A stretch of 64,000 nt of DNA from Verrucomicrobiota bacterium (GTDB lineage: Bacteria > Verrucomicrobiota > Kiritimatiellia > CAIQIC01 > JAGNIJ01): positions 67,190 to 131,189 of the forward strand of contig JAKLGK010000010.1 in the NCBI GenBank assembly GCA_022710725.1, read 5' to 3'. Below the pieces are notes generated by a model. The model did not search any database. It saw only the letters and a list, made by a program, of their open reading frames with translations, and was not told the DNA's origin. The position numbers and the translations under genes are program-made. Numbering within the stretch: position 1 is the first letter of the stretch; the number at the start of each line of letters is the position of its first letter. Positions 6,897 to 49,912 of the stretch are shown piece by piece.

Positions 6897-9131
<2,235 letters not shown>

Positions 9132-9160
9132 GGGGGTTCCTCCGGTTTTCGTTCGTGACG

Positions 9161-32003: not shown

Positions 32004-32079
<76 letters not shown>

Positions 32080-32488: not shown

Positions 32489-33565
32489 CTACACGATCTT
32501 TACCTTGGCGAGTTCGGCATCGATGAACGGCTGGCAGAGGTGTGCGTAGTGTTTTTGGAGCACCGTGGACGAGGGGGTATGCCCGACAACTATTTTAACC
32601 GCCTCGATATTTGACCCACTTTCAATGGCTCTACTGCAAAAATAGTGGCGGAAAGTATAAGGCGTGAATCCTTTCAATCCCGCGTTCTTAACGGCTCTCT
32701 TGAAGTGCTTCGGATAGCCATGAGCCCGGAATGCCGGTCGGCGCGGATGGAAGAACACCCAGTTGTGGGGCTTCCCGTCGGCAAAGACCTGCTCCCATTC
32801 CGTTTGCCACGCCAATAGGATGGGGAGGAGTTCCGGCAAGATGTTGACCGCCCTGAATCGTCCAGTCTTGAGATCGTGCTCTTGTTTGGGACGCACAAGG
32901 ATCTGCATCCTCTTGAAGTCGATATCGTCCCAGGAGAGGTGGAAGGATTCGCTGGGTCGCATCCCTGTGTACGCCATCAAGGCCATCCAGCAATAGACTT
33001 GGGAGCCTTCTGCTTTTCCGGCTTCAAGCAATGCCCTCATCTGCTCGGGGTTGGGAACCGGGCGATCACGAAGCACTTCCTTCAGGTTTTTGACTTCTTT
33101 CGCCGGATTCTGAAAAGCGTACTCTCTCTGCATCGCAAACTTGAACAGGTTGCGAAGGGTGATGAGTTCAAGGTTTACGGTTCTATTGGCCATGCCTTTT
33201 CTTTTCCGATCCTCCACGTATTTTTGAACATCCGATACTGCGATGGATGTCATGGGGGTCTTGTTGAAAAAGCCCAGGAGAGGGGGCCTCCGCGTCTTTT
33301 CACCGGCTATTGTGGACGCGGCACAGTCGCATGCACGGTATTCCAAGTACTCGCTGAAAATCTCGGCCAATGACTTGTTCCCTTTGCCACGAAATACCTT
33401 GCCTTCAATAATCACATCGTGCTTTCGTTTAGCTTCGGCAGCACTCGCGCGGCCCTTGGTTAGAAATCCTCCCTTACGATACCGTTGCCCCCTATGCCAA
33501 AAAGAGTAGTACCAAACGGGATGAGACCATTTATCCAAATGGTCTTTTCTTTGCCATACACTCAT
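32489..33565 (-). CDS. tyrosine recombinase / phage-type integrase
   Basis: MAYTGMRPSE (Arg), YTFRHYF (His-x-x-Arg), GHTPSSTVLQKHYAHL (His..Tyr). The start is 33565 (2 nt after the upstream stop) or 33601. Confidence 0.9.
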   Translation of the reverse strand: MSVWQRKDHLDKWSHPVWYYSFWHRGQRYRKGGFLTKGRASAAEAKRKHDVIIEGKVFRGKGNKSLAEIFSEYLEYRACDCAASTIAGEKTRRPPLLGFFNKTPMTSIAVSDVQKYVEDRKRKGMANRTVNLELITLRNLFKFAMQREYAFQNPAKEVKNLKEVLRDRPVPNPEQMRALLEAGKAEGSQVYCWMALMAYTGMRPSESFHLSWDDIDFKRMQILVRPKQEHDLKTGRFRAVNILPELLPILLAWQTEWEQVFADGKPHNWVFFHPRRPAFRAHGYPKHFKRAVKNAGLKGFTPYTFRHYFCSRAIESGSNIEAVKIVVGHTPSSTVLQKHYAHLCQPFIDAELAKVKIV

Positions 33566-33567
33566 GG

Positions 33568-34710
33568 TCAGATCTCTCCGCTCTTGGTCTTGTTGAACCA
33601 TGCATCCAAGTCCGACTTTTTGTAGGTATTCGGAGAGCCCGTCAGGTAAGGGATTTCCTTGTTATGCAGGAGCCACGATGGACTCCTCCGTAGATACATG
33701 GCTGCTTCCTTCGTCGTTAGGTACTCGTAATCCGCAAAATTGACCGTACTCTTGGCCAGGGATACGGCCGGGTGATGGTCCCGGCCAAGATCTTTCTCTT
33801 CCTGTCTTTTTGCCTTACCCGCATGTGCCGTCTCATCAAGGGATTCGCTCGAACTCGATGACGAATACACCACTTCCGAGGCTGTTTCCGGCACAGGCGC
33901 GGGCGGGGTGATGAGATATTCGGTGGATCGAGTCAGACCCGTGTTAAATGACTTTATCGAGTAGTTTACCGGCAGTTCTTCCAGGATGGCCCAGTCGTAG
34001 TGATCCTTGATTTCTGGAGCCATGTCATACGTCGCCACCCATCTGGTCCGTCCACGGAGAGCCTCGGCAAGGGCTTTGTGCTGCTCGGTCTGGAAATATT
34101 CCCGATACACGGATTTGCCTGCTTTGACATAGGGGGGATCGACGAACAGGACAGCATCGACAGGAGCTTCACGGATAAGCTGTATCCCGTCCTGGCAAAA
34201 GACCTTGGTGCGACCACGGAGCAGTTTGCGGGCCTCGATACATTCGGCGATGATTCTTCTGCAATTAAACCTGTCACCGATATGGCACTTGCCATCCTGT
34301 CCATATCCGCCAAGAGGGCCAGAATTTGCCATCCCACTGAACGTGCAATGGTTAAAGAAAATGGCACGGTAAGCACGCTCAACCTGGTCCTTGGGTGGGG
34401 TGGCGCGGAGTTGCTCAAGCAGTTCTACAGATGGAGCTTGGATGATAAGGTTAAGTAACCGCTGACACTCCCTGTCAGAGCCACTGGCCAGCACGTGCCA
34501 GAATGCCGATACGTCTTGGTCTAGGTCGTTTAGCCAGATTTCGATGTCGGGATAGTCCTGGGCCACGCTCAGCCCCACACTGAATCCACCGGCGAACGGC
34601 TCGACGTACAAGTGGGCATCACGCAACAACGGGTCGAGCTTTTCTCGGATTGAACCGATAAGTCTGTATTTTCCGCCAGGATACCTGAACAATGAGAGGT
34701 GCTTTTTCAT
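33568..34710 (-). CDS. D12-class (Dam-type) N6-adenine DNA methyltransferase fused to a C-terminal excisionase-like HTH
   Basis: FRYPGGKYRL (AdoMet motif) and FVDPPY (catalytic motif IV). The C-terminal 60 aa (YLTTKEAAMYLRRSPSWLLHNKEIPYL...YKKSDLDAWF) look like an HTH_17/Xis-type domain. Confidence 0.85.
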   Translation of the reverse strand: MKKHLSLFRYPGGKYRLIGSIREKLDPLLRDAHLYVEPFAGGFSVGLSVAQDYPDIEIWLNDLDQDVSAFWHVLASGSDRECQRLLNLIIQAPSVELLEQLRATPPKDQVERAYRAIFFNHCTFSGMANSGPLGGYGQDGKCHIGDRFNCRRIIAECIEARKLLRGRTKVFCQDGIQLIREAPVDAVLFVDPPYVKAGKSVYREYFQTEQHKALAEALRGRTRWVATYDMAPEIKDHYDWAILEELPVNYSIKSFNTGLTRSTEYLITPPAPVPETASEVVYSSSSSSESLDETAHAGKAKRQEEKDLGRDHHPAVSLAKSTVNFADYEYLTTKEAAMYLRRSPSWLLHNKEIPYLTGSPNTYKKSDLDAWFNKTKSGEI

Positions 34711-35318
34711 GAGGCACCGCCCTGTTCCTGCTGGTCAAGCCATGCGTAATACTCGTCTTGCGTTGTATCATCCGGCATGTCCCACATCGGCTCGCTGTAT
34801 GGATTGCTAATACGTGGCCGGAAAACAACTATGGCCACGGGGAATGGAGCCGGATATTCAGCGCCTTTAAATGTCAATCGTCCTATGGGGAACCGTATTT
34901 CAGATGCCTTGGCTGCGTACTGGTGCCACCAGTCCGTATCCACTCGTGCGGGTACAAGAGCAACCACCAGGGCAGCATTGTCCCGACACTCTATGTAGGC
35001 CTTTCTCAACCATTTTGGGAGTTCGGCGCTGTAGGGCGGATTCATAAAGACCCTCTCCCCTGCCCATGACTGCGCCAATCCATCTTCCGCTGGGGTGTAG
35101 TGCTTTTTACATTTGGCGGTCTTGTGGGTGCAGCAGGGGTCCAAGTCAAATTTGAACTCCAAATTCAAATACTCGAACCACACTGCCGGGGTAGCCCAAC
35201 TGTTGTTCCCTGTACTGGTCAATACCTGACGTGCATGCTCTGCTGTTTTATTTCTGCATACTTTATTATCTGCATCTGAGTTTGCCGGATTATCTCCAGC
35301 GGGTTTTGACTTCTTCAT
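34707..35318 (-). CDS. phage-type DNA N6-adenine methyltransferase (T1 Dam-like family)
   Basis: WATP..WF..LN.EF.FDLDPC...W.GERVFMNPPYS pattern with the NPPY catalytic motif. ATGA overlap with the downstream methyltransferase. Confidence 0.8.
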   Translation of the reverse strand: MKKSKPAGDNPANSDADNKVCRNKTAEHARQVLTSTGNNSWATPAVWFEYLNLEFKFDLDPCCTHKTAKCKKHYTPAEDGLAQSWAGERVFMNPPYSAELPKWLRKAYIECRDNAALVVALVPARVDTDWWHQYAAKASEIRFPIGRLTFKGAEYPAPFPVAIVVFRPRISNPYSEPMWDMPDDTTQDEYYAWLDQQEQGGAS

Positions 35319-36429: not shown

Positions 36430-39400
36430 CTACTTCTCCCCCCATGTCTGACACGCCTTGCAATCCACCACGATTGGCACTTGCGGGAAAATGGCCGCCA
36501 TCGCCTCGACCATGGCGTCGTGCACTATGGTATTTACCGCCTCAGCCTGCTCCGATGGTGTCTCGACGATCAGTTCGTCGTGGACGGTTGAGACGATTCC
36601 TGCCCCGTACGGTAGGCGGCTGGCGACAAGCAGAATTGCTTTTTTCATTCCGTCGGCACAGCTCCCCTGGACCGGCGTGTTCAGTAGCGTAGAGAATCGC
36701 GCCCATCTTTTGTCAAATCCGGCGGGCAGCATGCGCCTGCGGCCCAGTAGCGTTCGGACTTCCTTGGCACCACCAGCCTCAAGCCCTGCTTTGTCGTGCC
36801 AACGCCGCAGCCCTCGGTAGGCATTGAAAAATCGCTCTCTCATCTGAACGGCCTGTTGGTCAGTAAGCGTTACGCCGTAACTGGTTTTGGCGTACTTCAC
36901 CAATGTTGCCGCATACATTCCGTAGAGCAACCCGAAGTTCACGGCCTTGGCCAATTGTCGATCCTCTTTCGACACCGCATCGGGACTGATGCCCAGGACA
37001 AGGCTCGCCGTCTGCTTGTGCAAATCAGCCCCTTGGCGATACGCCTCGATCATTTTTGGTTCGTTGGCGATGGCCGCGGCGGCTCTCAACTCGATTTGCG
37101 AGTAGTCGGCAACAACCAAGGAGCAGCCTGGGCTTGCAACGAAGCAGTTTCGCAGCTCGCCTCGGGCGATGTTCTGCAGGTTAGGGTCCTTGGAGGAGAA
37201 TCTGCCTGTTTCAGTTCCGGTGGGTTCAAAACGCCCATGAATGCGTCCGTCCGGGCCTATCTTTTGAAGAAGCTTTTCTGTTTGTTCGGTGCGTTTCTGG
37301 GCGTTGCGATAAGCCAGGATATGAGGTACAAACCGGTCGTCGCCGCTGGCCTGTAAGGCTTCTTCGCCTGTTGATTCCAATGTAATACCCACACCGGCCA
37401 GCACGGTCTTGAGTTGCGCCGGTGAAGCCGGGTTGAGGGCAGGGGCATTGAATGTCTGTCGCAGCACCGTAGCTGCGGTGTCTCGCTCTTCTGCCGCCTT
37501 CTTGGAAAGGACCGCCAACCTGACCTTATCAATAGCAAACCCCCGAGCCTCGATATCCACCACCACCGGCAGGAGGTCCATCTCGGTTTCATACACCGTC
37601 AGCAACCCGGCCTTTTCTAGTTCGCCCTGGAGCTTTCCATGTAGGGCATGAAGATGATGCACATCGTCTGCGGCGTACCGCAGTTGTTCCTCGGACAACG
37701 CCATTGCCCCCCAATCAGATCGCCCTTGGTCCTTGGGCAGGTCTATTTGGAGGTGACGGGAAATTATAGCCCCGAGGTCGTTCGGCTCTTTGGTCCCGTT
37801 GGTCAACAAGCGACTGGCCGTCATGGTGTCCAGCACATTGCGGAGCACCAAGCCGCATTTAACCCGCAGCCACAGCGCATCAAACTTGATGTTGTGGCCC
37901 AAGACCGGCTTGGCGGGCAGCACCGCGCCGAGCGGTCCAAGATCGTAGCCAATAGCTTTCAGGTCCAGCACCCATGGGGAAACGCCTGGGATAGCCAAGG
38001 ATAGGAGCCGTATATCGCCCTGCCATGGGTCTAACCCGCCCTTGGCTCCATACGTTTCTATGTCCAAGGCAACGGGTTCCGATGCCGCCGTAATCTGGTC
38101 GGCTATGCCTTTTAGGGCGTCCGAGGATGTCACCAGGTCAAAGCAGGGGATTGTGGAAGATGCGGGCACCTTGGGCACGTTAGGCACCTGTTCTATGCTC
38201 TTATATATTTCCCTCTCTTTATTTTTCATCTCTATATTATTTGAAGAATTGGTTTTAATATAGGGAGTATAGGGAAGGTGCCCAAGGTGCCCAACGTGTC
38301 CACCTCCGGAAGGCGATTCTCCGACCTTGGCAGAGTTAAAAACGGTATCGAACATGGCGGCGCGGGCATTTACGGTAGAACCGCCCGCATCTTTCACGAA
38401 CCGATATGTATGCTGCTGAGATTTCTTGGCAGAGGCATTGCGTTCCAATCGGATACCGCCCAGAACACGCCCTACATGCTTATTCAGCAGTAGGGCGAAG
38501 GATGTGCGTCCGCCACGGCTTTCAAGGTCGAGCCACCCGAACAGCTCTGTGCCCTCGCCCTCAAGCAGTTCCATGATACGGCCCTTATTCACCCATTCCC
38601 CGTTGAACTGCTCGTGAGCCAGCGCAAATAGCGTCTTCATGTCGCCGGTTTGCTGGTCCCCGGCGATTTGGGTCCCGTCATTGGGAACAGGAAGACATGG
38701 ATCGCCCAATCCAGCAGAAGTCATGATGCCACCTACCACCTTTGCCCAGAGCGGGTAGCTGGTAAATGGGCTGGGTCCCGACGGGCGGCCCTGCATGTCC
38801 CAGTGGTCAACCAGCGCTGCAATAGCGGAGAGGACCCGACCACGGTTTGCGCGCAGCCACCCATGCAGGTCTGGCCTTTGGAAGGTTCGAGCGTTGGGGT
38901 CCTCCTCGCTGTAGAACAGCATAATCGGACGGCACCGAGCGTCGAGGTCCGGCGTGTAAGTCAATCCTGTATTAGCTGACAAACTGATCTCCATCTCATT
39001 CGGAAGGCTGATCGTGGTATTGCCTCCTAAAACACGGTCCGTCCATACCTCGGCTGTGCCGATACTTTCAAACGCCGAATTGTTTATATGCCCCTTGCAG
39101 TTTGCGAAGTGAATCCGACGCCGACCGGCGATCAGCGCAGAGGTAATTTTCTTGCGTGTCTCGGCCACGTCTGCGGTTAGCGGGGCATCCTCGTTTGTAC
39201 GGCCCTCATAGAGTATCGACGCAAGATTGGCCTCGCAATCTTTGCCTGCTCGTGCGCGGTTTGCGCCGTGGAACCACGTGGGTGTCCGAGCAGTCCATCG
39301 CCCGAACAGGCCGCGGCAGAAAGGCGTAATGAGCGCCGCTATGGCATGGGTAATGTCCTGCGCCGTCCGAAAACAGAACTCAAAATACAATTCACGCAGC

Positions 39401-40911
39401 AAGGCCAGGGCATCTGCCACTGGCATGCGCTCGATTTTCGGGGCGTCCTCGGCAAGATACGTCATGAAGCGCGGATCGTAGCCGGTGGACGGGTAGCAAA
39501 TTATCCCCTCCGGCGTGAGGATGGGAATCGGCACATCCAAGATACGTTCGACAACAGGCAGCTGCTCCCGAAATTGTTGTGCTGCCAATACTACCTCGGC
39601 TGTGTTTTTGTCCATGGAGCGGGCATTGAAAACGTCATTGCCCAGATCGTCCTTCGTCAAAAACCCCACCTCGGCGTAACTTTCCATCAAGGTAATCAAC
39701 CTAGCGGGCTTAACGACGGCAAATCCTAGGCACAGTTGTCCTTTTGCGAATTGGATCTGACTGATTTCCACAACCAGGCCGTTACGAAGGAAAAGACGCC
39801 TGACGCTAGTCGATGTGGCAATCGCTGCTCCTGCGTCTTTTGCAAAATCTGAGGCGGAGCGCCCTACACCGGGGAGGATGAGGCGCGGCCGCCCGTCCTG
39901 AGCAGTTTGACCCGGCTGAAAAACTCTCATCCGTTTACAGTGCAGGTCTACGCAGCCCGGTTCCGCTAATTCAAACCAATCCAGTACTTCGGCGAGATGC
40001 CGCTCAGCGCAATGTGCGTGCAGGCAAGAAAAACCCGGCATACTGTCAGGTGGCGCAAAGATTACAGTGCTGGAGTCGTCGGCAGCCTCTGCCTTGTCAC
40101 CATGCTCTGTTCGCCAAGGGCACAGGGCGGAGTATTTATTTTCATCCGGCGTGACGAGGTCGCCAAGCATCCCTGCGTCATGAAACAGTTCCGCTATATC
40201 TAGCGTGCGTAGGTCGCCCTGGTATTTCGCCCACCACGCTGCTTTATTCTGTCTGCGAACGGTGTGGCTGTCGGTTGTTTCTCCCTCATCGGTAGGCAGC
40301 CTGAATCCGAACCATTGCTGGAGTTGCGACCATGTTACGGTTGGAACTTCTCCCTTGGTCCTCCACTCGTAGGCCGATCCGTTTGGGTGAATGGAGGGCG
40401 GCAACACGATGTTAAGTCCGTCATAATACAGCTCTATCGTAAGCTTTTCGTTGATGTGGGAAATTAGAGCCTTCTCATACCTCTTCCCATTAGATTTCTT
40501 GAACTGGGGCAGATCATAGCAAACGAACACGAGCCGTTCGCCATTGCCGGTGGAATAGCGGGGGACATTCTTAAGATGCGCTTGCGCGGGCTGGTCATCT
40601 AACCACGCCCGCACGCTAGCACCCTGGTCCTTTTTCGAATCAAGGTCTATGAAGACCCATGGACGGCGGACCACGACTCCGAGATTGGAGGTTGTGCCAT
40701 TACTAAAGTACGTTGAAAGAAATTCATCCGTCACTTTTTCAACAGACCAACATTTCCAATCCCGAAGTCGTGGCTTTTTGCCCCGTTCGCTTGGCCCGCC
40801 CTCGCTAGGGCCATGTAGCGGGTGAACCGCCCACCCAAGGTCACGATACAGACGTGCTGCGGCCAGTTTATGGCTTGGTATTTCATCTGGTATTGTAAAA
40901 ACCTCGCTCAT
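36430..40911 (-). CDS. fusion replicase: N-terminal bifunctional primase-polymerase (PrimPol) + Zn motif + ~500-aa central region + C-terminal family A DNA polymerase with 3'-5' exonuclease
   Basis: PrimPol: GKKPRLRDW, WVFIDLDS, IVLPPSIHPNGSAYEW. Zn motif: CPWRTEHGD...FSCLHAHC. Exonuclease: LDIETYG, GHNIKFD, YAADDVHHL. Polymerase motifs A/B/C: VADYSQIELR, RQLAKAVNFGLLYG, STVHDELIVE. Confidence 0.9.
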   Translation of the reverse strand: MSEVFTIPDEIPSHKLAAARLYRDLGWAVHPLHGPSEGGPSERGKKPRLRDWKCWSVEKVTDEFLSTYFSNGTTSNLGVVVRRPWVFIDLDSKKDQGASVRAWLDDQPAQAHLKNVPRYSTGNGERLVFVCYDLPQFKKSNGKRYEKALISHINEKLTIELYYDGLNIVLPPSIHPNGSAYEWRTKGEVPTVTWSQLQQWFGFRLPTDEGETTDSHTVRRQNKAAWWAKYQGDLRTLDIAELFHDAGMLGDLVTPDENKYSALCPWRTEHGDKAEAADDSSTVIFAPPDSMPGFSCLHAHCAERHLAEVLDWFELAEPGCVDLHCKRMRVFQPGQTAQDGRPRLILPGVGRSASDFAKDAGAAIATSTSVRRLFLRNGLVVEISQIQFAKGQLCLGFAVVKPARLITLMESYAEVGFLTKDDLGNDVFNARSMDKNTAEVVLAAQQFREQLPVVERILDVPIPILTPEGIICYPSTGYDPRFMTYLAEDAPKIERMPVADALALLRELYFEFCFRTAQDITHAIAALITPFCRGLFGRWTARTPTWFHGANRARAGKDCEANLASILYEGRTNEDAPLTADVAETRKKITSALIAGRRRIHFANCKGHINNSAFESIGTAEVWTDRVLGGNTTISLPNEMEISLSANTGLTYTPDLDARCRPIMLFYSEEDPNARTFQRPDLHGWLRANRGRVLSAIAALVDHWDMQGRPSGPSPFTSYPLWAKVVGGIMTSAGLGDPCLPVPNDGTQIAGDQQTGDMKTLFALAHEQFNGEWVNKGRIMELLEGEGTELFGWLDLESRGGRTSFALLLNKHVGRVLGGIRLERNASAKKSQQHTYRFVKDAGGSTVNARAAMFDTVFNSAKVGESPSGGGHVGHLGHLPYTPYIKTNSSNNIEMKNKEREIYKSIEQVPNVPKVPASSTIPCFDLVTSSDALKGIADQITAASEPVALDIETYGAKGGLDPWQGDIRLLSLAIPGVSPWVLDLKAIGYDLGPLGAVLPAKPVLGHNIKFDALWLRVKCGLVLRNVLDTMTASRLLTNGTKEPNDLGAIISRHLQIDLPKDQGRSDWGAMALSEEQLRYAADDVHHLHALHGKLQGELEKAGLLTVYETEMDLLPVVVDIEARGFAIDKVRLAVLSKKAAEERDTAATVLRQTFNAPALNPASPAQLKTVLAGVGITLESTGEEALQASGDDRFVPHILAYRNAQKRTEQTEKLLQKIGPDGRIHGRFEPTGTETGRFSSKDPNLQNIARGELRNCFVASPGCSLVVADYSQIELRAAAAIANEPKMIEAYRQGADLHKQTASLVLGISPDAVSKEDRQLAKAVNFGLLYGMYAATLVKYAKTSYGVTLTDQQAVQMRERFFNAYRGLRRWHDKAGLEAGGAKEVRTLLGRRRMLPAGFDKRWARFSTLLNTPVQGSCADGMKKAILLVASRLPYGAGIVSTVHDELIVETPSEQAEAVNTIVHDAMVEAMAAIFPQVPIVVDCKACQTWGEK

Positions 40912-42618: not shown

Positions 42619-42933
42619 ATGATTGCCCAAGCTGAAAAAACGATAGCCTCGGTAAACCAGGAAGACGTTAGGCCACGGGAACTGTGTTTACCCGTGTTTA
42701 CAAGAACGTCCCATGGTACAGATTCAAACCTAGACCGCCTCAAGCTTTTAATGACTTTATTTTCGCTTTCGCAGGCGGACCTTTGTCGTGCCAGTGGATT
42801 TTCCCGCCCATTTCTTAGCCGTTTGTTGTCAGGCGACCTTGTGGGGAGTGAACGATTCTGGCTGAAGCTGAACTCTCGCTTGCTGGATCTCCTGTCCAAA
42901 ACCGGTACTTGGTGCTCGGTCTTCAAAGTCTAG
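42619..42933 (+). CDS. XRE-like helix-turn-helix protein
   Basis: Start at the ATG at 42619, preceded by GGAGGTG. LSQADLCRASGFSRPFLSRLLSG is a classic HTH_XRE pattern. Confidence 0.65.
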   Translation: MIAQAEKTIASVNQEDVRPRELCLPVFTRTSHGTDSNLDRLKLLMTLFSLSQADLCRASGFSRPFLSRLLSGDLVGSERFWLKLNSRLLDLLSKTGTWCSVFKV

Positions 42934-42941
42934 GCGCGGAC

Positions 42942-43433
42942 ATGATGACCTGCCGTATCGAGTCGTGGTTACGCCAGCACTTCCCGCCAGAGATATCAGA
43001 TGACGTGAAGGAGCATTTCGATATCATCCCCAAAGTCGCTGCTTTCGACGGCATATCTTTTGGCCCACGCTTGAACTTCCTTGTGGGTGAAAGTGGCTCT
43101 GGTCGGACACGACTGCTGGAAAGGCTGAAAACTTCTGCTGGAATCATCGAACTTCCAGCACCGCCGCCCGTATCTTTCACAGCCATGAGCCACGGGCAGG
43201 TCGTTTTTACAGTAGGCATGCTTCTTGTGAAATCCACGACCCAAAAAACGGCCCTCTTGGTTGACGACATCTTATTCATGCTCGATGACCGCCTCGCCGA
43301 GCAATTCCTTGTGGGGGTGGTCGCGAGCAATAAGCAGGCGATACTGACAGTGACGCTGGGGGAGATGGAAAGGGCGGAGAGGTTGATGCGGAAAGCGGGC
43401 GTAAGTGGGTACGGCATCGTCTGGCAGAAGTAA
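42942..43433 (+). CDS. minimal ABC/SMC-like ATPase domain protein with degenerate Walker A
   Basis: FGPRLNFLVGESGSGRTRLLE (Walker A with Arg in place of Lys), MSHGQ (signature-like), ALLVDDILFMLDD (Walker B/D-loop). Only 163 aa. Confidence 0.5.
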   Translation: MMTCRIESWLRQHFPPEISDDVKEHFDIIPKVAAFDGISFGPRLNFLVGESGSGRTRLLERLKTSAGIIELPAPPPVSFTAMSHGQVVFTVGMLLVKSTTQKTALLVDDILFMLDDRLAEQFLVGVVASNKQAILTVTLGEMERAERLMRKAGVSGYGIVWQK

Positions 43434-44126: not shown

Positions 44127-45641
44127 ATGCTAACAAAGAGGGAACAATCCAACCTGGAGACCCATGTTCTTGGGATTTTCCAGACCGTCGTTCTGCCAGA
44201 GATCACACCCGGAGGAGCCGTCCTCACGCGAGAAGCGGACGGAAGGGTCATCGAAGATTATGTGGCGACCCATCACCTGGTCGAATTATGTGTTGAGGTT
44301 GACGCCACTCTTTTCAAGCAGATTATTCATACCGCTTGCCAATGGTTTGCAAAAACACATGGCAACCCTCACAACCCATTTATGGTCACAACTCTTGCGC
44401 GAGCGGGCGCCTTTAATGATACGACGAGGGACGACATTGCAAAGGCCATCCTCGCGAAGCAGAAGCCAAGCGGCTTCTTTGAGCTATACTCCGGCTTTCT
44501 TGATGGGGGAAATATCTTCTCTACCCTTTGGGCGATTCGTATTCTTCAATTGCTCGGCCGACACGAAGCGACCTCGCCACCTATCCGCAAGGCGCTGAAT
44601 GCAATTGAAGGTCAGTGGGAGGATGTTCATCGTACATCGTTCAAGGGTTTCTTCTTTGAATTGCGACATGTGCCGTCTCATGGCAAGCGGCCATCTGCCG
44701 CAGCCACGAAACTTCTGACGGAGATCATCAAGGCACAGGCTGACAACGGCTTATGGGATGGTGAGGCGTTATATACGGCGTACGTATTGGGCAACCTGAC
44801 GAAAACTCCGTGGGAGCCAACATCTACCCAGCAATTTGCGGAAGACCATGCACTGAAGGCACTGTTCAGTCTTCGAGATTCCCCGCAGTCGCTACCGTCA
44901 GTGTTTCTTAAGGCGCGTAAGAAGTACCACGAATCAACATACCTACAACTGTGCTTTCGCTCACTCATTAGTTCTATCCGCTACCTTCGCATGCGATGCG
45001 GCAAAGATATGTCTCATGCAATTGCGTCAGTAGTAATGGGGTCGTTTCCTACGATCTACCACACAGCTCAACGTCTGGGGGCCGAACTTAAGCGGATGGA
45101 CGCTCAATATGGGGCTATACAAGCGCAGTTCTCTCATCTCGACCCATCCGCAAGCGTCCTGTTGAAAGAAAGTCCATATGAAAGAAACGTGTTTGTGATG
45201 ATGCCATTTCGAAAGGATCGCGACGAGCGCTATGAGCGAATCGAGAGTATTATCAGGCAAGAGCTCAAGAAGCACGGGTTCACTGCGTGGTTGGCCTCGG
45301 ACAAGACGGTAGCCCCTCAACTGTGGGATAACGTCGCTTCATTCCTTCTGGCGTGTAAGTACGGTATAGCCGTGTTTACTCGTATAGAGAAAGAAAGCAC
45401 TATACAGGAGGAGTTCAATCCGAACGTTTCGCTTGAACTCGGCTTCTGTCTGTCACGCGGGCGTAGCGTCCTTATTCTGAAGGACTCCTTCTTGCCACGA
45501 TTGCAGACAGACCTCATTGGCTATCTATACAAGCAATTCGACCTCAACCAAGTTACAAGGCAACTACCGCGGATTGTTCGTGCTTGGATACGAGATATTC
45601 TCAAAGCAGAGGAATGCGCAAAGAAGCAACCAACAAAATAA
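44127..45641 (+). CDS. fusion protein: N-terminal alpha/alpha-toroid (prenyltransferase/terpene-cyclase-like repeats) + C-terminal TIR/nucleoside 2-deoxyribosyltransferase-like domain
   Basis: Toroid-type repeats: KPSGFFELYSG..NIFSTLWAIRILQLLG and ADNGLWDGEALYTAYVLGNL. The C-terminal flavodoxin-like pattern is NVFVMMPFRKD...FTAWLASD...ACKYGIAVFT...NPNVSLELGFCLSRGRSVLIL. Confidence 0.6.
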   Translation: MLTKREQSNLETHVLGIFQTVVLPEITPGGAVLTREADGRVIEDYVATHHLVELCVEVDATLFKQIIHTACQWFAKTHGNPHNPFMVTTLARAGAFNDTTRDDIAKAILAKQKPSGFFELYSGFLDGGNIFSTLWAIRILQLLGRHEATSPPIRKALNAIEGQWEDVHRTSFKGFFFELRHVPSHGKRPSAAATKLLTEIIKAQADNGLWDGEALYTAYVLGNLTKTPWEPTSTQQFAEDHALKALFSLRDSPQSLPSVFLKARKKYHESTYLQLCFRSLISSIRYLRMRCGKDMSHAIASVVMGSFPTIYHTAQRLGAELKRMDAQYGAIQAQFSHLDPSASVLLKESPYERNVFVMMPFRKDRDERYERIESIIRQELKKHGFTAWLASDKTVAPQLWDNVASFLLACKYGIAVFTRIEKESTIQEEFNPNVSLELGFCLSRGRSVLILKDSFLPRLQTDLIGYLYKQFDLNQVTRQLPRIVRAWIRDILKAEECAKKQPTK

Positions 45642-45651
45642 TCCGGCGCAC

Positions 45652-45676
45652 AGTGAGCCCGCGGCGGGTTCACTGC
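45652..45676 (+). terminator. hairpin after the 504-aa gene (possible intrinsic terminator)
   Basis: CAGTGAGCCC-gcggc-GGGTTCACTG (10-bp stem including one G-U pair), followed by ccgcTGATTTGTG. Read by eye. Confidence 0.4.
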
Positions 45677-45807
45677 CGCTGATTTGTGACGTTGGCTTGA
45701 GATATCTGTTACTGAAATAGTGGGACGTTATGATGTGCTTGGCGGAGTTTTAGAGGAAAACGGATTAGGAAGCAAACCATGGCGTTCTGCCAAGGCTGTA
45801 GAAATCA

Positions 45808-47157
45808 ATGACAAAGAACCTGCACAGGAAAGCCGTCAGGGGCCAAGAAGGTGTCAACCTCGTAGAGAGGGTTGTTCTGGATATGAAGTCCAGATGGACG
45901 CCAAGCGGCCCTAACGAGGTTGGCATCGATGGTTTCATCGAACTGTTTGATTCGACGACTGGCAAGCCAACGGGCAAGAACATAGCGGTTCAATCAAAGG
46001 CCCTGGCCGCTCTTTGCCGGAAGGGCACCGACACCATCGAGTACTGGTGTGACCGCCGAGACATCGAGTACTGGTTGCGGCAGAATCTTCCAGTGATTCT
46101 CGTTGTCTCAAACCCAGATACTCCGGAGGCGTACTGGGCATGTATTCACGACCGGTTCCCGGATTACTCGCGACATGTGTCGCCGAAGATTCAATTTGAC
46201 GTTAAAGCCGACGCATTCTCCGCTTCAGCATGGGCTGCATTGCGCGGGCTGCGCACCCCGAAGATTGGCGGGAAGACCTTCATTGAAGCTTGCCAGCCCG
46301 GAACTGAACGAGCCGTCTCAAATCTCTTTCCTCTGCGTCGTTTTAGCGGCACGATCTATCATGGAATGACGGATATGCGTTATCCCATCGATGTGTGGCG
46401 ATCACTTCGCGAGGCTGCTGATTTCAACGATGGTGCCTGGGTGCTCCATGACAAGGGAGTATTCTCTTTTGCTGACCTCAAATCGCCGGAGTGGAACGCC
46501 ATCTGTGACAAGGGAACTGTGGAGCCGTTCGATACTGCTGAGTGGGCGGACTCTAGTAATGCTGACAGCCAACGGCTTTTCGTGCAATTGCTTAATCGAG
46601 CACTGAAATCGCAACTCAGTCCGAGGGTCCGTTTCTGGCCGAAACAGGATTGCTTCGCTTTTGTTGGTGGCCCTTGGACGGGTCGAGTTGTATTCCCTTA
46701 CCAGTCAGCAGAGAAAAAGAGCCATGTTACGGTTGTCGAAGAGTTCGCGCATGACACGGCCGATGGTCGGACCTTCGTCCATTACAGGCACTTAGCGTTC
46801 CGGGGGCGTTTCCGAAAACTCCAAGGCAAGTGGTTCTTGGAGGTCACTCCTACGTACCGGTTCACGCGCGACGGGAACTGGCTCTATCGATTTCACGAAG
46901 ATCAGTTGAAAGGGATCAAACGGATCGAGGGCAATAGAGCTGTTCTAAGCCAGGTCCTGGTGTGGGCTGAGTTCCTGTGTGAAACGGACGATATGTGGAC
47001 ATCCGTTCCCCGTCATCTTGAGTTCGTGCGTCCCGTTGAGATTGAGTTGCCAGCGATACTGCGGGATTCGGCATGGGGAAAACCACCGCAGCCCCCAAGC
47101 GAGGATTCTGATGATAGCATTATGGAACTTCCCTTTGGTGATGAGGTCATGTCATGA
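45808..47157 (+). CDS. DUF4365 (DREN nuclease)-APAZ protein, partner of the short pAgo
   Basis: The N-terminus has PD-(D/E)xK-like motifs (EVGIDGFIEL, NIAVQSK). The C-terminal APAZ hallmark is YRHLAFRGRFRKLQGKWFLEVTPTYRFTRDGNW. ATGA overlap with the next gene. Confidence 0.85.
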   Translation: MTKNLHRKAVRGQEGVNLVERVVLDMKSRWTPSGPNEVGIDGFIELFDSTTGKPTGKNIAVQSKALAALCRKGTDTIEYWCDRRDIEYWLRQNLPVILVVSNPDTPEAYWACIHDRFPDYSRHVSPKIQFDVKADAFSASAWAALRGLRTPKIGGKTFIEACQPGTERAVSNLFPLRRFSGTIYHGMTDMRYPIDVWRSLREAADFNDGAWVLHDKGVFSFADLKSPEWNAICDKGTVEPFDTAEWADSSNADSQRLFVQLLNRALKSQLSPRVRFWPKQDCFAFVGGPWTGRVVFPYQSAEKKSHVTVVEEFAHDTADGRTFVHYRHLAFRGRFRKLQGKWFLEVTPTYRFTRDGNWLYRFHEDQLKGIKRIEGNRAVLSQVLVWAEFLCETDDMWTSVPRHLEFVRPVEIELPAILRDSAWGKPPQPPSEDSDDSIMELPFGDEVMS

Positions 47158-48614
47158 GAGCGATCTTGCTGGAAGAACCGGAACTCGAATTTGGTGCAGG
47201 CACGCACGTGGATATTAGGTTTGGCCTAATGGAAAGCGGCCCGTTGGACCGTGATACAGATCTGGCTCCGCGTCCCTTGAAGGTTGGAGTAGTGGGAACT
47301 AAGAAGACGTGTGACGCAGCCTGCGAGTGGCTACAGAAACTGCGGGGTGAGATTCCGGCGCAGCAGACTCACCTTTCGAACTTACATCCACCTTTCCCGG
47401 GGATAGACGCATCTTCATGCTTCGGGACCGAACTGCAGATCCACGACAGGTGGATCTCTCCCGTCAGCATGCGCGAAGTAGACTCCATGATTTCCTCGTG
47501 CACTCCCGCTGAACTTGCAGAGCGATCGGTTGACCTCTTCTTGAGCCACGCGGATGATCTCGTGGATGCAGGCGGTCCGAGTGTCCTTATCGTCGCGCCT
47601 CCTCCGGAGCTGTTTGCCGCTCTTGAGTCAGATCCGAGGCCGCCAATTGACCCAGATGATCAAGAACTGGATGAAAGCACAGAGGCCACTCCCTCTGCTG
47701 CAACGCCGTGCTTCCACGATATCCTCAAAGCTAAAGGCATGCGTTTAGCCGTACCGATCCAGATGGTCCGCCCAAGGACCTATGGCATGACGGCGGGGAA
47801 CAAGAAGGGGCATAAAGGCCGGAAGACACTCCAAGACGAGGCGACGCGTGCATGGAACTTCGCCGTCGCTCTTTACTACAAGGCCGGCGGCACGCTCTGG
47901 CGCATCCCAAGGCAAACAAGCGACCTGACCGCGTGTTTTGTGGGGGTCAGCTTTTTCAAGATTCCGAACAGCAACGATGCAGCGTCAAGTGTGGCGCATG
48001 TGTTCAACGAGCGTGGCGAGGGAATCATTATTAAGGGTGGTGACGCGGCCTGGGACAAGTCTGAGCACCAGTATCACTTGTCCCGCAATGATTCCTTCGA
48101 CATTCTGTCCTCTGCACTGACGCTCTACCGTAAAGAGCATCACACCGTTCCTGCTCGCGTCATACTGCACAAGACATCGCCTTTCAGTGATGCCGAGCAG
48201 GATGGCTTCAAAGGCGCGTCGGAAAGGGAGAGGATCGCCTACACGGATTTGATACATGTCCGGCGGTCATATTCTCGGTTCTTTCGGACTGATATTTATC
48301 CGCCATTCCGTGGAACACTTGTGGAGCTAGAAGATGCCAGGGGGCTCCTCTATCTCCGGGGGAGCGTCTCCTTCTTCCAGGCATATCCGGGTCTCTATGT
48401 CCCCCGCCCTTTTGAGTTCTGTCTATGCCAGTCGGAGAATGGTGTTGAAGAAGTGGGAGAAGAGATGATGGCACTGTCTAAGCTGAACTGGAATAACACC
48501 CAGTTCGATGGTGGCGAACCAATCACTATCAGGGCAGCGCGACGTGTGGGCGATATACTGAAATGGATACCTCAAGATGTAAGCCCACGGAACGGATTCA
48601 GATTCTTCATGTGA
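47154..48614 (+). CDS. short prokaryotic Argonaute (MID-PIWI only, catalytically inactive PIWI)
   Basis: AWNFAVALYYKAGGTLWRI, ACFVGVSFF, RVILHKTSPF, MALSKLNWNNTQFDGGEPITIRAARRVG. At 486 aa there is no room for N/PAZ domains. The Asp positions are replaced (GVSF, HKTS). Confidence 0.9.
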   Translation: MRAILLEEPELEFGAGTHVDIRFGLMESGPLDRDTDLAPRPLKVGVVGTKKTCDAACEWLQKLRGEIPAQQTHLSNLHPPFPGIDASSCFGTELQIHDRWISPVSMREVDSMISSCTPAELAERSVDLFLSHADDLVDAGGPSVLIVAPPPELFAALESDPRPPIDPDDQELDESTEATPSAATPCFHDILKAKGMRLAVPIQMVRPRTYGMTAGNKKGHKGRKTLQDEATRAWNFAVALYYKAGGTLWRIPRQTSDLTACFVGVSFFKIPNSNDAASSVAHVFNERGEGIIIKGGDAAWDKSEHQYHLSRNDSFDILSSALTLYRKEHHTVPARVILHKTSPFSDAEQDGFKGASERERIAYTDLIHVRRSYSRFFRTDIYPPFRGTLVELEDARGLLYLRGSVSFFQAYPGLYVPRPFEFCLCQSENGVEEVGEEMMALSKLNWNNTQFDGGEPITIRAARRVGDILKWIPQDVSPRNGFRFFM

Positions 48615-48714
48615 AAGCATGTTACATCGAGGAAAGACAGCCACAAGGGCTTTCATGCCAACCTTGCTCGTGGGGTCGCTCGCAATAATGCCAAGCAACT
48701 GGCGTTCGACTAAC

Positions 48715-49221
48715 ATGATGAATATTAAATACATGGAATATGCGCTAGATCAAGCGCGAACAGCACTCGCCAATAATAACGTACCGATAGGCGCGGTAGT
48801 TGTACATGAGGGGTGTGTTATAGGGTGCGGCTATAATAGGGTTATGGGTGGGGATCGGTTTGGCCACGCGGAAATGATGGCCCTGCGCATGGCACATGAT
48901 GCAATAGCCGCATTGCGCATTTCAAGCAGAAGACGAGTTGAATTGTTTACGACGCTAGAACCTTGTATGATGTGCCTTGGAGCGGTCATGCAGGTAAATA
49001 TCGGGAAAGTAATTTACGCATTAAAGGCCCCAACTGATGGAGCTACGCATATGGCTGGGCCGCAGGTGGTCCATAGTGCACAGATCATGAAGTTCTATAC
49101 GCCGCCGATTGTTGAGAAGGGTGGCGGTGAGTCAGAGAGTAGACAGCTACTAAAGAAATTCTATACTGAACATTCTGCTCATTATCTGGGGAAGTGGGCT
49201 TTGTTATTGGCAGAGCAATGA
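48715..49221 (+). CDS. TadA/CDA-fold nucleoside (tRNA-adenosine-like) deaminase
   Basis: VPIGAVVV...GYN...HAEMMAL...TLEPCMMCLGAV zinc-binding deaminase motifs. The start is uncertain (48619, 48715 or 48733). Confidence 0.85.
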   Translation: MMNIKYMEYALDQARTALANNNVPIGAVVVHEGCVIGCGYNRVMGGDRFGHAEMMALRMAHDAIAALRISSRRRVELFTTLEPCMMCLGAVMQVNIGKVIYALKAPTDGATHMAGPQVVHSAQIMKFYTPPIVEKGGGESESRQLLKKFYTEHSAHYLGKWALLLAEQ

Positions 49222-49249: not shown

Positions 49250-49912
49250 ATGGAATCAAGGGTAACTACTTTTCGAGAATTCCACCACGAAGTATTTAAG
49301 ATAGACAATCGAGATGAAATATACAGAGGCGTGAGATGCTGTGATTACCGCCTGATCCCAAAGCTGGGCAGAATAGATCAATTCGCAAGAGGTGCGCTTG
49401 AATCCAGCGAAAGGCAAATGCTGAAATTGTTTCAGAATCAAGCATTGCCGTATTTGAATACTGTGCCTGATAATCTGTGGGAGTGGTTAGCGCTCGCACA
49501 ACATCATGGGCTGCCGACTAGGCTTCTTGACTGGACTAGAAATCCTCTTGTGGCGGCATGGTATGCGGTAGAGAGGTCGCATGATGGGGATAGTATGCTG
49601 TATTGCTATGAGAATAGAAACATAGTTGACATCGGGAGGCACAGAAACCCATTTAAAATCAAAGAAGTGGTTAAATTCATACCAAGGCATCTAACTAATC
49701 GTATCACAGTTCAAACGGGACTCTTTACATGTCATCCAAGGCCTCGTGATGAATTTAGTCCAGCCAGCATGAGAAAGATAATTATAGCAAAAGAGTTCAG
49801 GAGGGAATTGAAAAACATACTCTGGAAATATGGCGTGCACAGATTCTCGCTGTTTCCAGATTTAGATGGTCTGTGCCGACATATTCAATGGCTTAGAACA
49901 ATCACACACTAG
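49250..49912 (+). CDS. FRG domain protein
   Basis: IYRGV...LIPKLGR...WEWLALAQHHGLPTRLLDWTRNPLVAAWYA matches the FRG-domain signature as I remember it. Confidence 0.8.
   Translation: MESRVTTFREFHHEVFKIDNRDEIYRGVRCCDYRLIPKLGRIDQFARGALESSERQMLKLFQNQALPYLNTVPDNLWEWLALAQHHGLPTRLLDWTRNPLVAAWYAVERSHDGDSMLYCYENRNIVDIGRHRNPFKIKEVVKFIPRHLTNRITVQTGLFTCHPRPRDEFSPASMRKIIIAKEFRRELKNILWKYGVHRFSLFPDLDGLCRHIQWLRTITH

What the first reader, a model, noticed from the sequence alone, without database searches (positions are those of the whole stretch)
45808..48614. SPARDA-type short Argonaute system (DREN/DUF4365-APAZ + inactive MID-PIWI pAgo)
Two translationally coupled genes match the described two-component short-pAgo architecture in domain order, sizes (449 and 486 aa) and motifs. 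In that architecture a nuclease-APAZ partner is activated by guide-directed target recognition and causes collateral DNA degradation. The nuclease motifs (GIDGFIEL, QSK) look intact and the PIWI catalytic positions are substituted. The family is published, but this ortholog sits on a replicative integrative element in a high-GC host and is flanked by uncharacterised genes.
Basis: partly seen in the sequence, partly recalled or inferred. Interest (0 to 1): 0.7.

Follow-up and report, generated by a model that had tools for sequence, protein, structure and literature searches.

The report
Ordinary SPARDA short-Argonaute defence gene pair
These two overlapping genes are an intact copy of SPARDA, a published bacterial defence system in which an inactive Argonaute detects invading DNA and switches on a partner nuclease; it is a new, uncharacterised member of a large family, not a new kind of system.

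Summary
ORFs 45808-47157 (449 aa) and 47154-48614 (486 aa) overlap by ATGA.

ORF1 is a DREN(DUF4365)-APAZ protein:
- Pfam DUF4365, E 2.5e-23.
- PADLOC REase-APAZ, E 3.8e-115.
- Solved SPARDA partner chains, E 5e-40.
- The top 23 Foldseek hits are all SPARDA chains.
- The published catalytic residues E37, D41, Q62 and K64 are invariant in an 18-member alignment of the closest relatives.

ORF2 is a short MID-PIWI Argonaute:
- PADLOC pAgo_I, E 2.5e-147.
- NbaAgo, EaeAgo and XauAgo chains, E about 1e-80.
- It has a 5'-phosphate pocket, H188-K192-Q203-K243.
- Its PIWI is dead: TtAgo D546 maps to T341, at 95.7% hhalign probability.

In 79 of 80 related genomic loci the same partner gene lies directly upstream. 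Homology to the nearest relative begins 17 nt before the first ATG and ends at the second stop codon. The unit is therefore a self-contained 2.8-kb cassette, and the flanking genes are unrelated cargo.

The cassette lies in a 52% GC island beside tRNA-Phe and an integrase, next to 68% GC DNA, on a metagenome contig. The RNA-guided, filament-activated collateral nuclease mechanism is inferred from homologs, not shown here.

Differences from studied systems are modest: 35-40% identity and an HK-type rather than RK-type MID pocket.

The parts
45791..48614 (+). Conserved two-gene SPARDA cassette. This is the block of DNA homology to the nearest relative.
   Evidence: blastn against L003 gives 84% identity over 2,827 nt. 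The match starts 17 nt before the first ATG and ends at the pAgo stop codon. Flanks on both sides are unrelated.
45808..47157 (+). DREN-APAZ gene (449 aa), the effector partner.
   Evidence: Pfam DUF4365, E 2.5e-23. PADLOC Aga_REase-PNTD1-PNTD2, E 3.8e-115, full length. PDB chains 9qbp_A, 9qbq_A and 9jsb_D, E 5e-40 to 1e-35, over residues 1-427. The top 23 Foldseek hits are SPARDA DREN-APAZ chains.
45808..46257 (+). DREN nuclease domain with a PD-(D/E)XK fold, about residues 1-150.
   Evidence: The AF2 model gives helix 7-25, strands 29-32, 42-47 and 54-65, helix 83-90 and strand 96-101. [quoted passage not shown]
45916..45999 (+). Catalytic residues E37, D41, (E45), Q62 and K64.
   Evidence: All are invariant in the 18-member alignment of the closest relatives, A1. 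They correspond to XauSPARDA E37/D41/Q62/K64 and NbaSPARDA D41/Q60/K62, whose alanine mutants lose activity.
46267..46302 (+). Flexible linker between DREN and APAZ (residues 154-165), the likely 'bridging loop'.
   Evidence: The segment has pLDDT below 50 in the model. A bridging loop between DREN and APAZ is essential in NbaSPARDA. The equivalence is inferred.
46303..47052 (+). APAZ domain (about residues 166-415).
   Evidence: The model aligns with APAZ-only SPARDA chains at TM 0.77-0.87 and rmsd 3.6-4.3 A (9qbl_C, 9vx1_E, 9qcc_I). PADLOC PNTD1-PNTD2 models cover this stretch.
47056..47154 (+). Disordered acidic C-terminal tail (residues 417-449; 8 D/E against 2 K/R).
   Evidence: pLDDT is 30-33 and the composition is. 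In XauSPARDA the negatively charged C-terminal tail occupies the nucleic-acid groove and keeps the complex auto-inhibited. That role here is inferred.
47143..47157 (+). Translational-coupling junction: GAGG (47143-47146), a 7-nt spacer, then the ATGA start/stop overlap (47154-47157).
   Evidence: Read directly from the sequence.
47154..48614 (+). Short prokaryotic Argonaute gene (486 aa; MID about residues 1-250, PIWI about 251-486).
   Evidence: PADLOC pAgo_I, E 2.5e-147, full length. PDB chains 9jsb_A (NbaAgo) 3e-80, 9qbp_B (EaeAgo) 2e-79 and 9qbl_B (XauAgo) 3e-77. There are 2,677 homologs with E below 1e-10. No N or PAZ domain is present.
47715..47882 (+). MID 5'-phosphate pocket: H188, K192, Q203, K243. 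Also the g2 contacts Q227 and N235, and the variable g1-pocket residues C186 and R206.
   Evidence: H188, K192, Q203, Q227, N235 and K243 are invariant in A2. Across 81 sequences: H 73 / R 8; K192, Q203 and N235 81/81; Q227 79/81; K243 80/81. The residues align to NbaAgo R183/K187/K240, Q224/N232 and N181/W201. SPARTA BabAgo has the same F-H-D..K motif.
48174..48176 (+). T341, the position of the third catalytic aspartate of active Argonautes (TtAgo D546; R-D-G becomes K-T-S).
   Evidence: hhalign of the family profile against TtAgo gives 85% probability with 18 sequences and 95.7% with 81 sequences. The position is T or S in 81/81 relatives.
45661..45679 (+). Context: a terminator-like GC hairpin after the upstream 504-aa gene, separating it from the cassette.
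   Evidence: Consensus scan: 7 pairs, 6 of them GC, with a T-rich tail. This is a pattern match only.
32004..32079 (+). Context: tRNA-Phe(GAA) at the GC break, the likely integration site of the island that carries the cassette.
   Evidence: ARAGORN. GC falls from 68% to 52% here.
32489..33601 (-). Context: tyrosine integrase of the island.
   Evidence: Pfam Phage_integrase, E 8.2e-25, plus SAM-like N-terminal domains.

Best explanation
This is an intact two-gene SPARDA system (short prokaryotic Argonaute, DNase-associated), carried as a discrete 2.8-kb cassette on a horizontally acquired island at tRNA-Phe.

What the sequence shows:
- Gene 1 encodes a PD-(D/E)XK 'DREN' nuclease domain with all catalytic residues, a flexible linker, an APAZ domain and an acidic disordered tail.
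- Gene 2 encodes a MID-PIWI Argonaute with a complete 5'-phosphate pocket and a PIWI domain that cannot cleave.
- The genes are translationally coupled.

What is inferred from characterised homologs (NbaSPARDA, XauSPARDA, EaeSPARDA):
1. The two proteins form a 1:1 heterodimer that is auto-inhibited at rest, with the acidic tail lying in the nucleic-acid groove.
2. The Argonaute loads short 5'-phosphorylated RNA guides derived from abundant transcripts of an invading plasmid or phage.
3. Pairing of the guide with complementary single-stranded invader DNA beyond about 13-15 nt pushes out the PIWI sensor loops (the 'beta-relay').
4. The complexes polymerise into filaments, and the DREN domains are brought together as tetramers.
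5. The activated nuclease degrades DNA indiscriminately, host DNA included. This kills or arrests the cell and stops the invader from spreading.
For: - Architecture and family.
- Catalytic residues: E37, D41, E45, Q62 and K64 are invariant in the 18-member alignment A1 and match the residues whose mutation abolishes activity.
- MID pocket: H188-K192-Q203-K243 and the g2 contacts Q227/N235 are conserved. The same HK pocket occurs in the RNA-guided SPARTA Argonaute.
- Dead PIWI: D546 maps to T341 at 95.7% probability. No acidic residue is found at S266, K243, Y307 or 457-465.
- Operon conservation: the partner gene is directly upstream in 79 of 80 loci.
- Cassette boundaries coincide with the homology boundaries.
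- Both ORFs are full length relative to homologs of 450-458 and 486-492 aa.
- The acidic disordered tail is as in XauSPARDA.
- The mechanism comes from PMC12205087, PMC12774872, bioRxiv 10.1101/2025.04.08.647717 and 10.1101/2023.06.08.544223.
Against: - Nothing here shows activity. Heterodimer and filament formation, guide type and collateral cleavage are all inferred from proteins only 26-28% (DREN-APAZ) and roughly 35-40% (pAgo) identical.
- The adenine-specific g1 pocket of the studied systems is not conserved: Nba N181 becomes C186 and W201 becomes R206.
- The 5'-phosphate arginine is a histidine, so guide preference may differ.
- No sigma-70-like promoter was found in the 128 nt between the upstream hairpin and the first ATG, and the first gene has no obvious Shine-Dalgarno sequence.
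- Three of the four tetrad positions could not be mapped with confidence.
- The host is unknown, so expression and targets cannot be assessed.
Confidence: 0.88

Rival explanations
1. A different short-Argonaute system (SPARTA with TIR-APAZ, SPARSA with SIR2-APAZ, SPARHA with HNH-APAZ, or the Mrr/SMEK-APAZ type). In those systems immunity comes from NAD+ depletion or from a different nuclease.
For: The pAgo also matches SPARHA (9om4_B, 2e-57) and SPARTA Argonautes (about 1e-39). Its MID pocket is the F-H-D..K type seen in SPARTA. The APAZ region also scores against SIR2-APAZ profiles, E 4e-19.
Against: The effector domain is DUF4365/DREN. No TIR, SIR2, HNH or Mrr domain is present. The best PADLOC, PDB-sequence and Foldseek hits are all SPARDA, by 20-60 orders of magnitude.
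Confidence: 0.02
2. A larger composite system in which the Argonaute pair works together with its neighbours: the upstream 504-aa TIR-like protein and/or the downstream deaminase and FRG proteins.
For: The neighbours look defence-related. The 504-aa protein has a CAP12/Pycsar-type TIR-like C-terminal module. The next gene is a CMP/dCMP-type deaminase. The one after is FRG, matching PADLOC PDC-S15 at 1.6e-73. No terminator was predicted between the pAgo and the deaminase ORF, which starts 5 nt after the pAgo stop if the long ORF is real.
Against: None of these genes accompanies the pair in 80 related loci; one deaminase hit was found, at a different position. The nearest relative has an unrelated upstream gene, and its DNA homology stops exactly at the pAgo stop codon. 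A terminator-like hairpin separates the upstream gene. Characterised SPARDAs need only the two proteins.
Confidence: 0.04
3. An intact-looking but silent or decaying copy: cargo that is no longer expressed or functional in this host.
For: No promoter-like site or strong ribosome-binding site precedes gene 1. The cassette sits in foreign DNA of very different GC content from the host. The public gene caller chose shorter ORFs.
Against: Both reading frames are full length, with no frameshift or premature stop. Every invariant catalytic and pocket residue of the family is retained. The promoter scan covers only sigma-70 consensus sites and the host is unknown.
Confidence: 0.06

Closest known systems
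NbaSPARDA (Novosphingopyxis baekryungensis; PDB 9jsb, 9jsp, 9jsz, 9jt2, 9vx1, 9vx6)
   Same: - Same two-protein architecture and gene order.
- Full-length alignment of both proteins: DREN-APAZ 1e-35, pAgo 3e-80.
- Catalytic D41, Q and K are conserved.
- The K187/K240 5'-phosphate lysines and the Q224/N232 g2 contacts are conserved, as K192/K243 and Q227/N235.
- Same DREN secondary-structure order.
   Different: - Identity is low: about 26-27% for DREN-APAZ by Foldseek and roughly 35-40% for pAgo.
- The 5'-phosphate arginine R183 is H188 here (RKQK becomes HKQK).
- The adenine pocket differs: N181 is C186 and W201 is R206 here.
- The 2'-OH contacts S447/N451 are N448/D452 here.
- The acidic MID loop before the pocket is longer here.
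XauSPARDA / EaeSPARDA (Xanthobacter autotrophicus, Enhydrobacter aerosaccus; PDB 9qbq, 9qcc, 9qbl, 9qbp)
   Same: - These are the best sequence and fold matches for DREN-APAZ: 5e-40 by sequence and Foldseek 5e-34.
- The catalytic residue numbering is identical: E37, D41, Q62, K64.
- The C-terminal tail is acidic.
- pAgo E-values are about 1e-79.
   Different: Same kinds of difference as for Nba. Xau N179, which reads the adenine N6, is Cys here. Xau has an RK-type pocket and this protein an HK-type. Xau acts only on dsDNA, whereas Nba also cuts ssDNA and RNA. Which substrate range applies here cannot be predicted.
SPARTA (TIR-APAZ + short pAgo, e.g. BabAgo 8qlo, CrtAgo 8ifk, MapAgo 8fex)
   Same: Short MID-PIWI Argonaute plus an APAZ partner. 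It has the same F-H-D..K MID pocket. Activation is RNA-guided and triggered by ssDNA, through oligomerisation.
   Different: The effector is a TIR NADase that forms tetramers, not a nuclease in a filament. Similarity is much weaker: pAgo about 1e-39, and APAZ 14-18% identity.
AcaSPARHA (HNH-APAZ + short pAgo; PDB 9om4)
   Same: It belongs to the same S2B branch of short pAgo systems and is also a filament-activated nuclease system. pAgo E 2e-57, and Foldseek on the APAZ gives 9e-13.
   Different: The effector is an HNH nuclease, not a PD-(D/E)XK DREN domain.

Membership tests
SPARDA (short pAgo + DREN-APAZ) | The Argonaute is 'short': MID and PIWI only, with no N or PAZ domains. | tested here: met
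   The protein is 486 aa and aligns end to end with NbaAgo, EaeAgo and XauAgo of 482-485 aa and with the 455-position pAgo_I profile.
SPARDA (short pAgo + DREN-APAZ) | The PIWI domain lacks the DEDX catalytic tetrad. | tested here: met
   TtAgo D546 maps to T341 at hhalign probability 85% and 95.7%, and the position is T or S in 81/81 relatives. One missing aspartate is enough to break the tetrad. E512 maps to Y307, two residues outside the confident block. D478 maps to S266 by motif, or to K243 by the low-confidence alignment. The D660 region, 457-465, has no acidic residue. These three mappings are low confidence.
SPARDA (short pAgo + DREN-APAZ) | The MID domain has a 5'-phosphate guide-binding pocket ([R/H/Y]-K-Q-K). 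| tested here: met
   H188, K192, Q203 and K243 are invariant in A2. They align to NbaAgo R183/K187/K240 and, at lower confidence, to TtAgo R418/K422/Q433. This is the HK variant rather than the RK variant of the studied SPARDAs.
SPARDA (short pAgo + DREN-APAZ) | The partner protein has an N-terminal DUF4365/DREN PD-(D/E)XK nuclease domain with intact E/D/Q/K catalytic residues. | tested here: met
   Pfam DUF4365 E 2.5e-23. E37, D41, Q62 and K64 are present and invariant in the 18-member alignment A1. They match the residues validated by mutation.
SPARDA (short pAgo + DREN-APAZ) | The partner protein has a C-terminal APAZ domain. | tested here: met
   PADLOC PNTD1-PNTD2 models match at full length. 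The sequence aligns through residue 427 to solved DREN-APAZ chains. The model matches APAZ-only chains at TM 0.77-0.87.
SPARDA (short pAgo + DREN-APAZ) | The two genes are adjacent in one operon, effector first. | tested here: met
   ATGA overlap. The same order holds in 79 of 80 related loci and in L001 and L003.
SPARDA (short pAgo + DREN-APAZ) | The proteins form a bilobed 1:1 heterodimer. | not testable with these tools
   No multimer prediction was available. The claim is supported only by homology to solved complexes.
SPARDA (short pAgo + DREN-APAZ) | RNA-guided ssDNA recognition triggers filament assembly, DREN tetramerisation and collateral nuclease activity that protects against plasmids or phages. 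| not testable with these tools
   These are biochemical and genetic properties, known for the Nba, Xau, Eae and Cme systems.
SPARTA / SPARSA | The APAZ partner carries a TIR or SIR2 NADase domain. | tested here: not met
   No TIR or SIR2 hit was found in ORF1. Only the APAZ part matches the SIR2-APAZ profiles, at residues 163-395.
SPARHA / Mrr(SMEK)-APAZ systems | The APAZ partner carries an HNH or Mrr-like nuclease domain. | tested here: not met
   The N-terminal domain is DUF4365. The SPARHA partner ranks only 24th by fold, and through its APAZ part.

The most novel reading that the evidence does not exclude
The window's pAgo belongs to a large SPARDA branch: at least 458 species-level loci share its signature motifs. 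The best solved relatives are only about 35-40% identical. In the 81 sequences compared, the MID pocket is mostly the SPARTA-like HK type (H in 73, R in 8). The residue that reads the guide's first adenine in Nba and Xau (Asn) is variable here, and is Cys in this copy and its two nearest relatives. This branch may therefore select guides with a different 5' end, or with no 5'-AU requirement. That would broaden the guide design space for SPARDA-based nucleic-acid detection. A still less likely reading is functional coupling with the downstream deaminase and FRG genes.
Probability: 0.25. Interest if true: 0.35.

Novelty: new member of a known kind. Interest (0 to 1): 0.2.

Why it matters
Biologically it adds little. 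SPARDA is a published defence system with solved structures, and this copy has every defining sequence feature.

Its modest value has three parts.
1. It corrects two truncated public gene calls.
2. It shows cleanly that the two genes move as a discrete 2.8-kb cassette, with homology breaking at the start and stop codons, into an integrase-bearing island at tRNA-Phe.
3. It is a divergent representative with an HK-type pocket. The best solved relatives are only about 35-40% identical, so it could be sampled to test whether guide 5'-end preference differs from the 5'-AU rule. That question matters for diagnostic uses of SPARDA.

Tried and rejected
1. Mapping all four TtAgo tetrad residues by profile alignment. 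Only D546 falls in the confident block. Greedy and cropped hhalign runs gave low-probability or visibly mis-registered alignments for D478 and D660; for example 'fDAGG' was paired with the MID 'yKAGG'. Those two positions rest on motif inference and on the absence of acidic residues.
2. Host taxonomy. The window's genome is not among the GTDB species representatives. The UvrA/DrrC-like host protein has named relatives only at or below 63% identity (unnamed hits reach 94%), scattered across unrelated phyla including archaea. The host remains an uncultured high-GC bacterium from JGI metagenome 3300010429.
3. Far boundary of the island. No 14-mer repeat of the tRNA-Phe region occurs elsewhere in the window, and the contig ends about 1.1 kb beyond the window, inside the giant gene.
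4. Linkage of the neighbouring genes to the system was rejected.
5. Structure of the 504-aa neighbour. The single-sequence AF2 model has pLDDT 37 and is unusable, so no fold search was run on it.
6. Viral origin. No relative of the pAgo or of the PrimPol-PolA protein was found on IMG/VR contigs with the patterns used.
7. Pfam and NCBIfam give no hit for the pAgo itself. This is a limit of those libraries, not evidence against the assignment; some homologs do carry PF02171.
8. Only single chains can be submitted.
Full report
**Observation**

The junction reads tgtcATGAga. The second ATG therefore overlaps the first gene's TGA, and a GAGG sits 7 nt upstream. The window splits into 68% GC DNA (1-32000) and 52% GC DNA (32080-64000). 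The two genes are 54-55% GC.

**Identity of gene 1**

- Pfam finds DUF4365 over residues 13-145 (E 2.5e-23).
- The PADLOC profile for the restriction-endonuclease-type APAZ partner of class I short Argonautes matches end to end (E 3.8e-115).
- phmmer against PDB sequences aligns residues 1-427 to the DUF4365/DREN-APAZ chains of the Enhydrobacter, Xanthobacter and Novosphingopyxis SPARDA structures (E 5e-40 to 1e-35).
- An AlphaFold2 model built on 18 family members has mean pLDDT 74.6.
  - It has a low-confidence linker (154-165), an APAZ domain (166-415) and a disordered tail (417-449).
- The top 23 Foldseek hits for this model are all SPARDA DREN-APAZ chains (E down to 5e-34). APAZ-only chains match at TM 0.77-0.87. 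SPARHA and SPARTA partners follow.
- Published mutagenesis identifies E37, D41, Q62 and K64 (Xau numbering) and D41, Q60 and K62 (Nba numbering) as catalytic. Here E37, D41, E45, Q62 and K64 are present, and they are invariant in the 18-member alignment of the closest relatives.
- The last 33 residues carry 8 acidic and 2 basic residues. This resembles the auto-inhibitory tail described for XauSPARDA.

**Identity of gene 2**

- Pfam and NCBIfam are silent. The PADLOC pAgo_I profile matches at full length (E 2.5e-147).
- The protein aligns end to end with NbaAgo, EaeAgo and XauAgo (E 3e-80 to 3e-77). It aligns less well with the SPARHA Argonaute (2e-57) and SPARTA Argonautes (about 1e-39).
- At 486 aa it has room only for MID and PIWI domains.
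- Using the published NbaAgo contacts, the 5'-phosphate ligands R183/K187/K240 correspond to H188/K192/K243. The g2 contacts Q224/N232 correspond to Q227/N235.
- Across 81 relatives, position 188 is H in 73 and R in 8. K192, Q203 and N235 are present in 81/81, Q227 in 79/81 and K243 in 80/81.
- The adenine-specific pocket residues are not conserved. N181 becomes C186, and this position is variable across the family, with D most common. W201 becomes R206.
- The F-H-D..K form of the pocket is the one found in the RNA-guided SPARTA Argonaute BabAgo. An HK pocket is therefore compatible with 5'-P RNA guides.

**Dead PIWI**

I fetched TtAgo from plasmid pTT27. D478, E512, D546 and D660 sit at the published positions in that sequence. 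Profile-sequence alignment places D546 on T341, with R-D-G becoming K-T-S. The probability is 85% with 18 sequences and 95.7% with 81 sequences. The position is T or S in all 81 relatives. E512 falls two residues outside the confident block, on Y307. D478 and D660 could not be placed reliably. The candidate positions (S266 or K243, and 457-465 ITIRAARRV) contain no acidic residue. One firmly missing aspartate is enough to rule out slicer activity. This agrees with published statements that short pAgos lack the tetrad.

**Is the pair a unit, and are the neighbours part of it?**

- Homologs are numerous: 2,677 for the pAgo and 531 for the partner at E below 1e-10. The nearest are 87%/85% and 70%/64% identical, and most others are around 50%.
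- A scan of one genome per species found 458 loci across many phyla.
- In 79 of the best 80 loci, a DREN-APAZ homolog lies directly upstream on the same strand. None of the window's neighbours is linked: the 504-aa protein, the deaminase, the FRG protein and two small ORFs.
- The nearest relative has an unrelated upstream gene. Its DNA homology to the window (84% over 2,827 nt) runs from 45791 to 48614, that is, from 17 nt before the first ATG to the last base of the second stop codon.
- A terminator-like hairpin follows the upstream gene.

The system is therefore a self-contained cassette.

**Context**

- A tRNA-Phe gene lies at the GC break.
- It is followed by a tyrosine integrase, two adenine methyltransferases and a 1,493-aa PrimPol-exonuclease-PolA fusion. 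An integrative, possibly self-replicating element is a fair reading.
- No repeat of the tRNA end occurs in the window.
- The source contig (JGI metagenome 3300010429, 132 kb) ends about 1.1 kb past the window, inside a giant gene. The far boundary is unseen.
- The left half of the window is ordinary chromosomal DNA.
- The host could not be placed taxonomically.
- No relatives were found on viral contigs.
- Related pAgos, at 41% identity or less, occur on 91 plasmids, half of them conjugative. This fits the family's known mobility.

**Mechanism**

The sequence shows a nuclease domain with all catalytic residues intact, a flexible tether, an APAZ domain, an acidic tail, a competent guide pocket, a dead slicer site and coupled translation.

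The rest is inferred from the Nba, Xau and Eae work:
1. The proteins form an auto-inhibited heterodimer.
2. 5'-P RNA guides are loaded from invader transcripts.
3. The guide pairs with invader ssDNA, and the sensor loops are displaced.
4. The complexes assemble into filaments, and the DREN domains tetramerise.
5. Indiscriminate DNA degradation causes abortive infection or plasmid loss.

Guide 5'-nucleotide preference and substrate range (dsDNA only, as in Xau, or broader, as in Nba) cannot be predicted for this copy.

**Comparison and verdict**

All sequence-testable defining features of SPARDA are met. The features defining SPARTA, SPARSA, SPARHA and the Mrr type are not met. The copy is divergent from the studied systems, at roughly 26-28% and 35-40% identity, and has an HK-type pocket. 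This is variation within a known family.

Noticed in passing
window 44127-45641 (+): A 504-aa protein lies just upstream of the cassette. Its helical N-terminal region gives weak squalene-cyclase-like hits. Its C-terminal module of about 150 residues (about 335-491) resembles the CAP12/Pycsar TIR-like domain: sub-threshold here, above threshold in relatives. About 30 full-length relatives exist. About 1,000 further proteins share only the C-terminal module under varied N-termini (for example CHAT plus SLOG), a pattern typical of a shuffled defence effector domain. It is not linked to SPARDA elsewhere.
   Followed up: partly
window 48619-49221 and 49250-49912 (+): Two genes lie immediately downstream of the pAgo. 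The first is a 200-aa CMP/dCMP-type zinc deaminase (TadA-like, E 5.5e-21; MafB19-like, E 1.3e-18). Its long ORF starts 5 nt after the pAgo stop, although the conserved domain begins at residue 36. The second is a 220-aa FRG-domain protein matching the PADLOC candidate system PDC-S15 (E 1.6e-73). They may form a separate defence module. They are not linked to the pAgo pair in 80 related loci.
   Followed up: partly
window 56994-64000 (+), runs off the window and the contig: A giant open frame of at least 2,366 codons lies in the window; the partial public gene call is 2,709 aa. It has three LamG/ConA-like domains and bacterial TSP3 repeats, so it looks like a surface or adhesin-type protein. 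It is carried on the low-GC island, and the contig ends inside it.
   Followed up: partly
window 36430-40911 (-): A 1,493-aa fusion protein combines an N-terminal Prim-Pol domain, a 3'-5' exonuclease and a family-A DNA polymerase. It is the likely replication module of the island. It also gives partial matches to the PADLOC RTasPolA (DRT) and BrxHI models through the polymerase and exonuclease parts. No relatives were found on IMG/VR viral contigs.
   Followed up: partly
window 33568-35318 (-): Two adjacent DNA adenine methyltransferase genes lie next to the integrase: a D12-class enzyme with a C-terminal HTH, and a Dam-like enzyme. No recognisable restriction endonuclease is nearby. They could be orphan or anti-restriction methylases of the element.
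   Followed up: no
window 45808-48614 versus the public calls on JGI contig Ga0116241_10000296: The public annotation truncates both genes. DREN-APAZ is called as 424 aa, starting at M26, which removes helix alpha1; that helix forms a tetramer interface in NbaSPARDA. The pAgo is called as 381 aa, which removes 105 N-terminal MID residues. Homolog coverage supports the longer ORFs.
   Followed up: yes
window 6897-9452 (-): The host-side UvrA-like ABC protein (DrrC / class II UvrA type) has its closest named relatives, at about 63% identity, in methanogenic archaea and assorted bacterial candidate phyla. This suggests the paralog is itself horizontally mobile, and it made the protein useless for placing the host.
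   Followed up: partly
window 42909-43433 (+): A short ORF (174 aa; public aa) gives weak P-loop/AAA and RecF C-terminal-like hits. It may be a remnant of a larger ATPase gene in the island.
   Followed up: no
L022 and L021 (related loci from the genome scan): Two Acidobacteriota loci break the usual arrangement. In L022 the DREN-APAZ homolog lies about 3.2 kb upstream of a pAgo whose match starts at residue 50. In L021 no partner was detected and the pAgo match starts at residue 42. These may be insertions or decayed copies.
   Followed up: no
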